Below, in pieces: positions 17,994 through 18,741 of a DNA stretch of 64,000 bases; positions within the stretch are counted from its first letter, which is position 1; every line of letters begins with the position of its first letter. The translations under genes and the position numbers were made by a program. The notes beneath the pieces are model-generated. The model had not been told where the DNA came from. It did no database searches and saw nothing but the letters and a program-made list of their open reading frames with translations. The stretch comes from an uncultured Gammaproteobacteria bacterium. GTDB lineage: Bacteria; Patescibacteriota; Patescibacteriia; UBA1558; GWA2-36-10. Location of the stretch: positions 17,362-81,361 of the forward strand of contig CAZXZY010000001.1 of NCBI GenBank assembly GCA_964645825.1, read 5' to 3'.

Positions 17994-18629
17994 TTATGCT
18001 GATGTGTCTTCGGGCAAGAGTCTTTGAATGATGGCCAGGTTTGTTTTCAAGATCTCTTCCTTGATGTTATCACTAGTATTTTCCCATAATATATCAAATT
18101 CAACTCTATCGTAAAAAAGATCAGTAAACATTGCAGATAATATCTTTATTGCAAGATCCTGTGGAGATGGCCCATGCTTATCAAGCCATTCCTGCAATAA
18201 CGGCACGGTACTTTCTTTTGGAGCGGGATTAGAATCTTCCACGCTTGCCGTTTCCTCTGCTAAGAGTTGTTTAATAATAGCAAAGCTTGTTTGAAGAATT
18301 TTTTCACTAACAACAGGCTTAAAACTTTTCCACTTCTCTTCGAGTCCACTTCTGTTGTAGAAAAGATCATTAAATACTTCAAATAGTATTTTTTCTTCAA
18401 GATCCTGTGGAGGTGACTCATGCCTATTAAGCCATTCTTGCAATAACGGCACGGCATTGACAGAGAATTTGTCAGGATTACTGAACATCACACTGCAACC
18501 TTTACAGATGTGATATAATGTTTGGCGTTGAATATCACTTCCGGTTAGGCCATTATCTCTTGTCACTGTTGTATATCTATTGTGGCCACAGTTACGACAT
18601 TTGAATTTAACCTCTAATTGCTTAGCCAT
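17994..18629 (-). CDS. zinc-ribbon protein with two tandem copies of an 82-aa acidic helical repeat (start at internal Met MAKQ)
   Basis: CRNCG...CKGC zinc ribbon. Repeats VPLLQEWLNRHESPPQDLEEKIL... and VPLLQEWLDKHGPSPQDLAIKIL... are about 80% identical at DNA level. GGAGGA sits 8 nt upstream of the second ATG. Confidence 0.55.
   Translation of the reverse strand: MAKQLEVKFKCRNCGHNRYTTVTRDNGLTGSDIQRQTLYHICKGCSVMFSNPDKFSVNAVPLLQEWLNRHESPPQDLEEKILFEVFNDLFYNRSGLEEKWKSFKPVVSEKILQTSFAIIKQLLAEETASVEDSNPAPKESTVPLLQEWLDKHGPSPQDLAIKILSAMFTDLFYDRVEFDILWENTSDNIKEEILKTNLAIIQRLLPEDTSA
17997..18452 (-). repeat. intragenic tandem duplication, 246-bp unit x about 1.85
   Basis: Units at 18207-18452 and 17997-18206, e.g. 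aagccattcctgcaataacggcacgg vs aagccattcttgcaataacggcacgg. Confidence 0.7.
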
Positions 18630-18683
18630 TTTAAAGATCCTCCATATTGTAAACACAGATTGCAAATGTACTTTTAATATAAT

Positions 18684-18741
18684 ATATTAGTATTTATCTA
18701 GTATTTTGTCAAGTTAACCCCTCCTAACCTCCCCTTGACAA
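18684..18741 (-). promoter_or_regulatory. near-consensus sigma70-type promoter (TTGACA-17-TAATAT) overlapped by inverted repeat TTGTCAAG-N20-CTTGACAA
   Basis: On the minus strand, -35 is at 18712-18707 and -10 at 18689-18684. The IR arms are 18706-18713 and 18734-18741. Confidence 0.45.

What the first reader, a model, noticed from the sequence alone, without database searches (positions are those of the whole stretch)
17994..18741. Zinc-ribbon protein with a recent 246-bp internal tandem duplication, driven by a near-consensus promoter overlapped by an inverted-repeat operator
The CxxC...CxxC N-terminus is followed by two copies of an 82-aa acidic repeat that are about 80% identical at DNA level, so the duplication is recent or homogenised. 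A GGAGGA RBS precedes the second Met. Upstream is TTGACA-17-TAATAT, whose -35 box forms half of the palindrome TTGTCAAG-N20-CTTGACAA. The 3' side has a clean terminator. This looks like a tightly regulated stand-alone unit of unknown function.
Basis: seen in the sequence. Interest (0 to 1): 0.5.

Follow-up and report, generated by a model that had tools for sequence, protein, structure and literature searches.

The report
Orphan zinc-ribbon protein, old internal repeat
A small self-contained gene, found in one marine ultra-small (Patescibacteria) bacterium but missing from its five closest sequenced relatives, fuses a zinc-binding module to two old, diverged copies of an undescribed acidic helical module; its function is unknown and the proposed "operator" is probably not one.

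Summary
The sequence features are real. There is a minus-strand CDS at 17994-18629 (211 aa) with a C4 zinc ribbon, two 82-aa-spaced repeats, a GGAGGA ribosome-binding site, TTGACA-17-TAATAT, the 8-nt inverted repeat and a strong terminator.

**Duplication age.** The repeats are 66-67% identical in DNA and 47% in protein, not 80%. Synonymous sites are saturated except in the first 20 codons (dS 0.08). That fits an old duplication with a short homogenised 5' tract.

**Operator.** The palindrome is unremarkable statistically: 12% of shuffles give one. CTTGACAA is this lineage's strong -35 box and also sits at the RNase P RNA promoter. A relative has the same back-to-back boxes at the same intergenic spot.

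**New findings.**
- Each module belongs to its own un-annotated family of stand-alone 55-75-aa proteins, with no Pfam, NCBIfam, PHROG, PADLOC or PDB match. Only this protein fuses them.
- Five syntenic relatives go straight from NUDIX to the NTPase gene without it.
- The gene has the highest GC3 of 23 genes tested.

It is best read as a lineage-specific acquired cassette. The proposed function, a basic zinc-ribbon docking module carrying a covalent pair of acidic partner-binding modules, is inference only. Interest is modest.

The parts
17994..18629 (-). CDS, 211 aa plus TAA stop. The start is the ATG at 18629, not the upstream TTG or GTG used by gene callers.
   Evidence: Zinc-ribbon homologues start 6-12 residues before the F-x-C motif. 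The SD sequence lies 8 nt upstream.
18453..18629 (-). N-terminal basic C4 zinc ribbon (aa 1-59; C11, C14, C42, C45; pI 9.3).
   Evidence: phmmer hits to stand-alone 55-75-aa proteins, E 8e-9 and weaker. Alignment A2 has the four Cys invariant. AF2 pLDDT is about 90 with a beta-hairpin at residues 19-25 and 35-42. pI.
18207..18452 (-). Repeat 1 (aa 60-141): an acidic helical module plus an acidic, Pro-rich linker (AEETASVEDSNPAPKEST). It is the more diverged copy; the EEILxTNL motif has become EKILQTSF.
   Evidence: The AF2 model has helices 62-67, 77-91, 96-102 and 105-132 with pLDDT above 90.
17997..18206 (-). Repeat 2 (aa 142-211): an acidic helical module that keeps the family motif KEEILKTNL.
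   Evidence: phmmer hits to stand-alone 66-73-aa proteins P0016, P0031, P0038 and P0042. Alignments A1 and A5.
18393..18452 (-). First 20 codons of repeat 1. This is one side of the homogenised (gene-conversion-like) tract.
   Evidence: 87% nt identity to 18147-18206, with 1 synonymous difference in 13.2 synonymous sites (dS 0.08).
18147..18206 (-). First 20 codons of repeat 2. This is the other side of the homogenised tract.
18638..18643 (-). Shine-Dalgarno sequence GGAGGA, 8 nt before the ATG.
   Evidence: Read from the sequence.
18684..18712 (-). Sigma-70-type promoter-like site TTGACA-17-TAATAT: -35 at 18712-18707 and -10 at 18689-18684. The inferred TSS is near 18677.
   Evidence: The same CTTGACAA -35 box precedes the RNase P RNA gene. 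The TSS was not measured.
18706..18741 (.). Inverted repeat TTGTCAAG-N20-CTTGACAA. The right arm is the -35 box. The left arm forms the apex of hairpin 2.
18728..18747 (-). 20-nt near-perfect palindrome or hairpin CCTCCCTTGTCAAGGGGAGG (-13 kcal/mol), centred about 61 nt upstream of the inferred TSS.
18713..18796 (-). 84-nt imperfect G+C-rich palindrome (44% GC, -40 kcal/mol) that contains the NUDIX terminator and hairpin 2. It is unique in the window.
18765..18782 (-). Intrinsic terminator of the upstream NUDIX gene (TCCCCCTTAACAGGGGGA plus a T run).
17945..17974 (-). Intrinsic terminator of the gene: 13-bp stem, then TTTTTTT, -17 kcal/mol.
   Evidence: (I7).
17873..18797 (-). The whole lineage-specific cassette between the NUDIX stop and the NTPase start. 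In five relatives this spot is absent or filled differently.
   Evidence: GC3 outlier status.

Best explanation
The locus is a self-contained, lineage-specific accessory gene cassette with its own sigma-70-type promoter, Shine-Dalgarno sequence and intrinsic terminator. It sits in a variable intergenic spot between the NUDIX and ITPase-like NTPase genes of a Nomurabacteria-like Patescibacterium from a marine oxygen-minimum-zone metagenome.

It encodes a 211-aa, three-module protein:
- a basic C4 zinc ribbon;
- two diverged copies of an acidic four-helix module of about 64 aa.

Each module type belongs to its own un-annotated family. Elsewhere those families occur as stand-alone small proteins or, for the zinc ribbon, fused to unrelated C-terminal tails. 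Only this protein combines them.

The two helical copies arose by an old duplication. About 60 nt at the 5' end of each copy were later homogenised, probably by gene conversion.

The following mechanism is inferred, not shown. The zinc ribbon acts as a docking module for nucleic acid or a partner protein. The two tethered acidic modules stand in for a dimer of the stand-alone protein and bind or occlude a basic partner surface. Transcription is most simply constitutive from a strong promoter. The 'operator' is then the -35 box plus an inverted -35-like box embedded in an upstream hairpin.
For: Gene anatomy.

Two separate families:
- A full HMMER scan of 1.84 billion representative proteins finds 51 hits. 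They cover either aa 3-63 (zinc ribbon) or aa 142-208 (repeat). None covers both except the protein itself.
- The family alignments have invariant Cys4 and invariant helical-core residues.
- Profile searches recover 28 stand-alone helical-module proteins and 25 zinc-ribbon proteins, none with a Pfam annotation. One is named Candidatus Paceibacterota.
- Zinc-ribbon modularity is shown by P0009 (tandem copies) and by P0013, P0024 and P0027 (other C-terminal tails).

Structure: the AF2 model of aa 1-141 has pLDDT 88, with a zinc-ribbon hairpin followed by a helical bundle.

Lineage-specific cassette:
- Five genomes have NTPase 70-76% identical and the same gene order (ATPase, thymidine phosphorylase, NUDIX, NTPase, MnmA) but lack the gene.
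- In the closest relative (NUDIX 85% identical) the NUDIX stop and NTPase start are 1 nt apart.
- The gene's GC3 is 0.33, against 0.250 +/- 0.028 for 22 neighbouring genes.

Old duplication with a conversion tract. The shared one-residue insertion (Y in DLFYxR) is.

Promoter credibility: the same CTTGACAA box sits in front of rnpB, and TTGACT-17-TATAAT sits in front of tRNA-Gln.
Against: - No experiment or homologue of known function bears on the biochemical role.
- The inter-repeat packing behind the 'covalent dimer' idea could not be modelled. Single-sequence AF2 gave pLDDT 47, and MAFFT splits single-domain homologues across the two repeats.
- pTM of 0.59 for aa 1-141 gives no confident contact between the zinc ribbon and the helical module.
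- No zinc-ribbon gene lies within 4-5 kb of any stand-alone helical gene, so the fusion is not backed by conserved neighbourhood.
- Gain versus repeated loss at the NUDIX-NTPase spot is decided by parsimony only.
- The exact inverted repeat is rare for that particular pattern: 0.02 expected per window.
Confidence: 0.55

Rival explanations
1. One reading: a recently duplicated protein whose near-consensus promoter is tightly controlled by a dimeric repressor bound to TTGTCAAG-N20-CTTGACAA over the -35 box.
For: - The inverted repeat exists, overlaps the -35 box and is the only match in 64 kb (0.00-0.02 expected for that pattern).
- The first 115 nt of the repeat units are 79% identical.
Against: - Whole-unit identity is 66-67%. 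dS is saturated outside codons 1-20. R1-R2 identity is no higher than R2's identity to foreign homologues.
- Some perfect 8-nt inverted repeat occurs in 12% of shuffles of the spacer.
- CTTGACAA is the ordinary strong -35 box here, as at rnpB.
- Relative L012 has TTGTCAAG-N12-TTGACAA at the same intergenic spot. There the two boxes face two real divergent genes.
- A similar inverted pair of -35-like boxes flanks the tRNA-Gln promoter.
- The half-site centres are 28 bp apart (about 2.7 turns), and no regulator gene is adjacent.
- There is no second copy that would define a regulon in the window.
Confidence: 0.1
2. A phage- or mobile-element-derived gene with an anti-defence role. The acidic helical modules would mimic nucleic acid or block a defence protein, and the zinc ribbon would target it.
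For: - The gene is absent from five syntenic relatives and has the highest GC3 of 23 genes.
- Zinc-ribbon homologues occur on viral or phage-like contigs: L010 and L011 with a terminase, L031 beside a reverse transcriptase and a lysozyme, and L032.
- Several family members give weak Lar (restriction alleviation) zinc-ribbon matches.
- The modules are acidic, pI 4.3-4.7.
Against: - There is no integrase, transposase or other mobile gene nearby, and no flanking repeats.
- The helical family is almost absent from 2.9 million viral contigs, with one weak hit.
- The helical family sits among housekeeping genes, with partial synteny to SecA, NUDIX and HPF, in Paceibacterota chromosomes.
- There are no PADLOC or PHROG matches.
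- All fold scores are below significance.
Confidence: 0.15
3. Autoregulation or activation through the 20-bp palindrome CCTCCCTTGTCAAGGGGAGG (18728-18747), centred about 61 nt upstream of the inferred start. The binding factor could be the protein's own basic zinc ribbon.
For: - The palindrome is near-perfect, with 9-10-nt arms.
- It is G+C-rich in a 34% GC genome and unique in the window.
- It is placed like a class I activator site relative to the inferred TSS.
Against: - The argument is purely positional.
- The TSS is inferred, not measured.
- The same sequence is equally a stable RNA hairpin in NUDIX read-through transcripts, and it is part of an 84-nt palindrome.
- There is no conservation test.
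Confidence: 0.07
4. The ORF is a decaying or non-functional relic, and the repeat is meaningless.
For: - There is no orthologue.
- Repeat 1 has lost part of the family motif, and its C-terminal half is only about 25% identical to family members.
Against: - The 211-codon frame is intact with a good SD sequence.
- All four Cys and the invariant helical-core residues are kept in both repeats.
- dN is below dS overall (0.37 against 0.80).
- AF2 folds aa 1-141 confidently.
- The sequence is identical on contigs from several samples.
Confidence: 0.05

Closest known systems
Small one-domain C4 zinc-ribbon / 'C(P)XCG' zinc-finger micro-proteins. Fold relatives are the TFIIS C-terminal, RPB9/RpoM and Lar-type zinc ribbons. 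The general class is described for Haloferax volcanii in PMC6562870.
   Same: Two CxxC knuckles, the first being C-[RP]-x-C-G, flank a beta-hairpin. The size is about 55-75 aa when stand-alone, and the module is basic. Weak sub-threshold hits go to Zn_ribbon_Elf1, TFIIB, TFIIS, IS1595, PaaD and Lar models and to rubredoxin knuckles.
   Different: No curated model reaches its cut-off. The family has its own motif (NGIxGPG loop; C-x-G-C-S-V-x-F-x-D-P-x-K-F-S). Here it is fused to two helical modules, which no other member shows.
Un-named family of stand-alone acidic proteins of about 64 aa from Paceibacterota / Patescibacteria (for example P0016, P0070, P0077). Consensus: MxLLxEYxxRYxxPPTDPAKKILFAVxxDLxGRRGFDxxWDxxDDEIKEEILETNLExI.
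   Same: Both repeats align over their full length and keep the invariant L, P, I/L, R, W, E, L and T/N positions. Identity is 31-48%. The modules are acidic.
   Different: All 28 relatives found are single-domain and monocistronic, with no conserved partner gene. Here there are two copies in one chain behind a zinc ribbon. Both copies carry a one-residue insertion that the others lack.
Anti-CRISPR AcrVIA2 (PDB 7xmw).
Palindromic operators overlapping a -35 box (classical repressor-controlled promoters).
   Same: An exact 8-nt inverted repeat has one arm covering the -35 hexamer.
   Different: The spacer is 20 nt, putting the half-site centres 28 bp apart. The repeat is unique in the window and no regulator gene is nearby. 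Its arms equal the lineage's generic -35 box. A relative shows the same box pair serving two divergent genes.

Membership tests
Stand-alone small zinc-ribbon family (alignment A2) | Four invariant Cys in two CxxC knuckles about 27 residues apart | tested here: met
   C11, C14, C42 and C45 are invariant columns in the 25-sequence alignment.
Stand-alone small zinc-ribbon family (alignment A2) | Significant sequence similarity over the whole module, including F-x-C-[RP]-x-C-G and C-x-G-C-S-V-x-F-x-[DN]-P-x-K-F-S | tested here: met
   phmmer E is 8e-9 to 1e-4 against about 40 proteins over aa 3-63. The motifs are visible.
Stand-alone small zinc-ribbon family (alignment A2) | Zinc binding | not testable with these tools
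   Needs metal analysis of purified protein.
Acidic 64-aa helical family of Paceibacterota (alignment A5) | Full-length alignment that keeps the invariant core (L24, R34, L53 and the near-invariant P, D, A, I, F, G, W, E, N, L) | tested here: met
   Both repeats align end to end. phmmer hits to P0016, P0031, P0038 and P0042 have E 9e-7 to 3e-4. Repeat 1 has lost N56/L57 (TSF in place of TNL).
Acidic 64-aa helical family of Paceibacterota (alignment A5) | Single-domain, stand-alone architecture | tested here: not met
   Here there are two copies fused behind a zinc ribbon. All 28 others are single-domain.
Curated zinc-ribbon families (Pfam Zn_ribbon_Elf1, Zn_Ribbon_TF, TFIIS, Lar; NCBIfam) | Score at or above the curated gathering cut-off | tested here: not met
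   The best hit scores 14 bits against a cut-off of 29.8. No NCBIfam hit reaches its cut-off. Scanning each family member on its own gives only sub-threshold hits.
Recent tandem duplication | High nucleotide identity and low synonymous divergence over the whole unit | tested here: not met
   Identity is 66-67% overall. dS is 0.08 for codons 1-20, 0.93 for codons 21-38 and saturated for codons 39-71. TRF finds nothing.
Recent tandem duplication | The two copies are each other's closest relatives | tested here: inconclusive
   This holds for codons 2-20 (68% against at most 47%), and both copies share the Y insertion. It does not hold for codons 21-66 (41% against up to 51% for R2 versus P0016).
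Repressor operator | Inverted repeat stronger than chance and recurring at other promoters (a regulon) | tested here: not met
   12% of shuffles give a perfect 8-nt inverted repeat. There is one copy in 64 kb. Only the window was searched, not the whole genome.
Repressor operator | Conservation of the repeat in orthologous promoters | not testable with these tools
   No orthologue of the gene exists in 15 billion proteins. The other contigs carrying it are 100% identical.
Repressor operator | Cognate DNA-binding regulator encoded nearby | tested here: not met
   The neighbours are NUDIX, thymidine phosphorylase, NTPase and MnmA. There is no HTH regulator.
Sigma-70-type promoter | -35 and -10 hexamers at 16-18 nt spacing, upstream of the gene, in an intergenic region | tested here: met
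   TTGACA (6/6), 17 nt, TAATAT (4/6), 55 nt before the ATG. The same extended -35 box is at rnpB. The TSS was not measured.
Intrinsic terminator | G+C-containing stem-loop followed by a T run just after the stop codon | tested here: met
   13-bp stem, 4-nt loop, TTTTTTT, starting 20 nt after the stop, -17 kcal/mol.

The most novel reading that the evidence does not exclude
The fusion could be a 'Rosetta stone' linking two wholly uncharacterised small-protein families: a zinc-ribbon module shared by Patescibacteria and phages, and an acidic four-helix module confined to Paceibacterota. They would belong to one pathway, for instance an acquired anti-defence or nucleic-acid-mimic effector. In that case the zinc ribbon targets the protein and a covalent pair of acidic modules blocks a DNA- or RNA-binding partner.
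Probability: 0.12. Interest if true: 0.55.

Novelty: new variant of a known kind. Interest (0 to 1): 0.3.

Why it matters
As it stands this is a well-delimited orphan gene in an uncultured, reduced-genome bacterium, which is common in Patescibacteria.

Its modest value has three parts:
- It defines two un-annotated small-protein families with clear motifs, one apparently specific to Paceibacterota.
- It gives the only known physical link between those two families.
- It offers a clean example of an old internal duplication with a short homogenised tract, sitting in an intergenic spot that holds different small genes in different relatives.

If the helical module turns out to have a defined partner, the fused version would be a natural tethered-dimer reagent.

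Tried and rejected
- **Word-indexed homologue search with the full protein.** It returned only the protein's own 100%-identical cluster. The cluster members differ only in the called start.
- **Family and structure libraries.** Pfam, NCBIfam, PHROGs, PADLOC and PDB sequence searches, run with the protein, with stand-alone relatives and with profiles, gave nothing above threshold. A 16-bit profile match to PDB 4o87 'N-tagged nuclease' (E 0.11) was set aside as not significant.
- **Spurious hits.** P0012 and P0041, long repetitive proteins, were rejected as low-complexity or repeat artefacts after reading them.
- **Full-length structure.** The MAFFT alignment split single-domain homologues across the two repeats, so it was not used. 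The single-sequence model had pLDDT 47 and is unusable.
- **Pattern scans with broad alignments.** Narrower alignments worked.
- **L004 downstream gene.** The 69-aa CxxC protein downstream of the L004 helical gene is not a member of the zinc-ribbon family (hhalign probability 1.5%).
- **RNA elements.** Rfam finds nothing credible in or around the locus.
- **Repeated or mobile-element copies of the flanks.** None were found in the window or in related loci.
- **Promoter capture.** I tested whether the gene's promoter is the captured NTPase promoter of relatives. The alignment is unconvincing (A8). Instead, the window's own NTPase upstream region aligns with the relatives' NTPase promoters (A9).
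- **Conserved neighbours of stand-alone helical genes.** None were found beyond partial SecA/NUDIX/HPF or smpB-tmRNA synteny.
- **Literature search.** A search for Patescibacteria zinc-ribbon small proteins found nothing specific.
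Full report
**1. What is in the sequence**

The feature lies on the minus strand. The mechanical ORF runs from 17994 to 18665 with a TTG start. The likely start is the ATG at 18629, which gives 211 aa. GGAGGA (18643-18638) sits 8 nt upstream of it. Relatives of the N-terminal module also begin 6-12 residues before the F-x-C motif.

The protein starts MAKQLEVKFKCRNCG...YHICKGCSVMF. This gives two CxxC pairs at C11/C14 and C42/C45.

Two units follow, spaced 82 aa (246 nt) apart (D1).

Upstream is TTGACA-17-TAATAT (18712..18684), and the exact inverted repeat TTGTCAAG-N20-CTTGACAA (18706-18741).

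Downstream, 20 nt after the stop codon, is a 13-bp stem followed by TTTTTTT (17974..17945; -17 kcal/mol).

The upstream NUDIX gene (18798-19169) has its own terminator at 18782..18765.

Their quantitative description is not fully accurate:
- The 79% identity holds for 115 nt only.
- Over the whole unit the copies are 66-67% identical in DNA and 34/71 in protein.
- Tandem Repeats Finder reports nothing.

**2. What the protein is made of**

No curated family matches in Pfam, NCBIfam, PHROGs, PADLOC or PDB sequences.

The word-indexed search of 5.8 billion clusters returns only the protein's own cluster. Its members are identical apart from the called start.

The exhaustive HMMER scan of 1.84 billion representatives is more informative. 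It finds 51 hits, which fall into two disjoint sets:
- One set covers aa 3-63. These are stand-alone proteins of 55-75 aa (P0005-P0011 and others).
- The other set covers aa 142-208. These are stand-alone proteins of 66-73 aa (P0016, P0031, P0038, P0042).

Two long repetitive hits (P0012, P0041) are artefacts, judged by inspection.

Alignments show two genuine families.

The zinc-ribbon family (A2):
- The four Cys are invariant.
- It has a characteristic NGIxGPG loop and the motif C-x-G-C-S-V-x-F-x-D-P-x-K-F-S.
- It occurs alone, in tandem (P0009), or with unrelated C-terminal tails (P0013, P0024, P0027).
- It is present on phage-like and viral contigs as well as in bacterial ones (L010/L011 with a terminase, L031, L032).

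The helical family (A5):
- Its consensus is MxLLxEYxxRYxxPPTDPAKKILFAVxxDLxGRRGFDxxWDxxDDEIKEEILETNLExI.
- Most members are acidic, with pI near 4.5.
- Profile searches recover 28 members. All are single-domain, none has an annotation, and one is named Candidatus Paceibacterota.
- It is nearly absent from 2.9 million viral contigs.

The protein in the window is the only one that fuses the two families, and the only one with two helical modules. The zinc ribbon is basic (pI 9.3). The repeats are acidic (pI 4.7 and 4.3).

AlphaFold2 on aa 1-141, with both families in the alignment, gives pLDDT 88. The model has a zinc-ribbon beta-hairpin, then helices 62-67, 77-91, 96-102 and 105-132. pTM is only 0.59, so the relative orientation of the two modules is not defined.

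Fold searches were not significant:
- Foldseek against PDB and BFVD gives nothing at E 1e-3 or better.
- The zinc ribbon draws the expected generic TFIIS-C, RpoM and Lar-like matches.

**3. Age of the duplication**

A Nei-Gojobori comparison of the two units shows a steep gradient:

| Codons | Result |
|---|---|
| 1-20 | 87% nt identity; 1 synonymous difference in 13.2 sites; dS 0.08 |
| 21-38 | dS 0.93 |
| 39-71 | pS 0.75, i.e. saturated; 54% nt identity |

Outside the first 20 codons the repeats are 41% identical. R2 is up to 51% identical to stand-alone P0016 from another organism.

Both repeats do share a one-residue insertion (Y in DLFYxR) that all 27 other members lack.

My reading is inference from these numbers. 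The duplication is internal but old. R1 diverged faster, and its C-terminal half is only about 25% identical to the family. A tract of about 60 nt at the 5' end of each unit was homogenised later, most simply by gene conversion. 'Recent' is therefore wrong, and 'homogenised' is right only locally.

**4. Where the gene came from**

I used the adjacent NTPase (17318-17872) as a probe. It recovered five genomes of related Patescibacteria, with NTPase 70-76% identical. One is labelled Candidatus Nomurabacteria and one is a Saanich Inlet MAG.

All five have the same gene order: TrwB-like ATPase, thymidine phosphorylase, NUDIX (NUDIX is missing in L015), NTPase, MnmA. None has the gene.
- In the closest relative, L014 (NUDIX 85% identical), the NUDIX stop and NTPase start are 1 nt apart.
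- L013 has about 90 nt between them, holding a terminator and the NTPase promoter.
- L012 and L016 have about 320-370 nt, holding a different, mutually homologous gene of 61-63 aa on the opposite strand.

The NUDIX-NTPase junction is therefore a variable spot for small self-contained genes. The 925 bp at 17873-18797 are a lineage-specific cassette.

The CDS has the highest GC (0.377) and GC3 (0.33) of 23 genes tested. The other 22 average GC3 0.250 +/- 0.028. This fits acquisition from elsewhere.

There are no mobile-element genes nearby and no repeats of the flanks.

Three other contigs carrying the gene are 100% identical to the window over 14-20 kb. Population variation therefore gives no test.

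Stand-alone helical genes sit among housekeeping genes. Some show partial synteny to SecA, NUDIX and the hibernation factor (L004, L006). Others lie after smpB-tmRNA (L007, L019). There is no conserved partner, and no zinc-ribbon gene within 4-5 kb.

**5. Promoter and 'operator'**

The promoter is credible.
- It is intergenic, correctly oriented and 55 nt from the ATG.
- Its extended -35 box CTTGACAA is identical to the one in front of the RNase P RNA gene (45048-45395).
- tRNA-Gln has TTGACT-17-TATAAT.
- A terminator hairpin directly followed by a TTGAC box is the rule in this compact genome.

The operator reading is weak, for these reasons:
- Some perfect 8-nt inverted repeat with a 0-30 nt spacer turns up in 12% of shuffles of the 168-nt spacer. 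Eleven such repeats occur in 3.7 kb of intergenic DNA.
- The repeat is unique in the window.
- No regulator gene is adjacent.
- The half-site centres are 28 bp apart, so the two half-sites would not lie on one face of the helix. This last point rests on established knowledge of dimeric operators.
- Its arms are simply the -35 box and an inverted copy of that box.

Relative L012 has TTGTCAAG-N12-TTGACAA at the same junction. There the two boxes face two real divergent genes. A similar inverted pair flanks the tRNA-Gln promoter (29113-29142). In the window the leftward box lacks a proper -10 hexamer (TAAAAA) and has no gene to serve, so it may be vestigial.

The left arm is also the apex of a 20-nt near-perfect palindrome, CCTCCCTTGTCAAGGGGAGG (18728-18747, -13 kcal/mol). 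That palindrome is itself part of an 84-nt G+C-rich imperfect palindrome (18713-18796, -40 kcal/mol, 44% GC) that includes the NUDIX terminator. I cannot assign a role to this structure. Because it is centred about 61 nt upstream of the inferred start, an activator or autoregulatory site remains a low-probability alternative.

**6. How it most likely works**

Shown:
- It is an intact, well-signalled, lineage-specific gene.
- It encodes a zinc ribbon plus two helical modules, each belonging to a conserved family.

Inferred:
- The basic zinc ribbon is a docking module for nucleic acid or a protein. This fits its promiscuous fusion to different tails.
- The two tethered acidic modules replace a dimer of the stand-alone protein and engage a basic partner.
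- Expression is constitutive from a strong promoter.

I give the descriptive and evolutionary part high confidence. I give the biochemical mechanism about 0.2-0.3.

An anti-defence role of foreign origin is the most interesting reading that is not excluded (about 0.12-0.15).

**7. Comparison and novelty**

The N-terminal module is a new, un-annotated branch of the familiar small C4 zinc-ribbon, or 'C(P)XCG', micro-protein class. That class is described in PMC6562870, found.

The helical module has no described relative.

The architecture is unique in the databases searched.

Overall this is a new variant of a known kind, a small zinc-ribbon protein of unknown function. It is not a new kind of system, and nothing in the evidence points to an unusual mechanism. 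Interest is modest, at 0.3.

Noticed in passing
L012:566-751 (-) and L016:5730-5921 (-): Two relatives carry a mutually homologous gene of 61-63 aa (…ACGDHL[VI]W[VI]LGK…) at the NUDIX-NTPase junction. It lies on the opposite strand, has its own CTTGACAAT box, and is unrelated to the window's gene. The junction therefore looks like a hot spot for small accessory genes.
   Followed up: partly
window 18713-18796: An 84-nt G+C-rich (44% against 33%) imperfect palindrome (-40 kcal/mol) spans the NUDIX terminator and a second hairpin. Its runs GGGGGA and CCTCCCC occur nowhere else in the 64 kb. Its role is unknown.
   Followed up: partly
window 45048-45395 (-) and 45400-45440: An RNase P RNA gene (Rfam, 219 bits) is preceded by a terminator hairpin and then tCTTGACAAt-N-TATAAA. 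This is the same extended -35 box as at the gene under study.
   Followed up: yes
window 29113-29142 and 29177-29250: The inverted repeat GTCAATCA-N14-TGATTGAC has a right arm that overlaps the TTGACT -35 box of the tRNA-Gln(CTG) promoter. It is a second case of inverted -35-like boxes.
   Followed up: partly
window 25216-25250 (-): An 11-nt-arm hairpin, AACCCTATT…AATAGGGTT, abuts or overlaps the TTGACT -35 box of the promoter for the sigma-70-like gene at 24057-25160. Terminator and promoter overlap in this compact genome.
   Followed up: no
L004:4670-4890: Upstream of the stand-alone helical gene P0077 lies a G+C-rich non-coding stretch of about 190 nt. It is bounded by cTTGACAAa-17-TATAAT and by a hairpin with a T run. 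It has no Rfam match at gathering score, so it is a candidate unknown small RNA.
   Followed up: partly
L004:5232-5441: A 69-aa CxxC-containing ORF lies directly downstream of the stand-alone helical gene and has its own SD sequence. It is not related to the zinc-ribbon family (hhalign probability 1.5%).
   Followed up: yes
L031:257-1312 and 2255-2446: On a 6-kb viral contig, a zinc-ribbon family member (63 aa) lies about 1 kb downstream of a reverse-transcriptase-like ORF (YCDD motif) and upstream of a lysozyme-like ORF.
   Followed up: no
L007:4321-4717 and L019:1642-2031: tmRNA genes follow smpB in both loci. In L007 the stand-alone helical gene lies about 280 nt downstream of the tmRNA.
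   Followed up: yes
P0009 (146 aa): One relative carries two zinc-ribbon modules in tandem. Internal duplication has therefore also happened in the other family.
   Followed up: no
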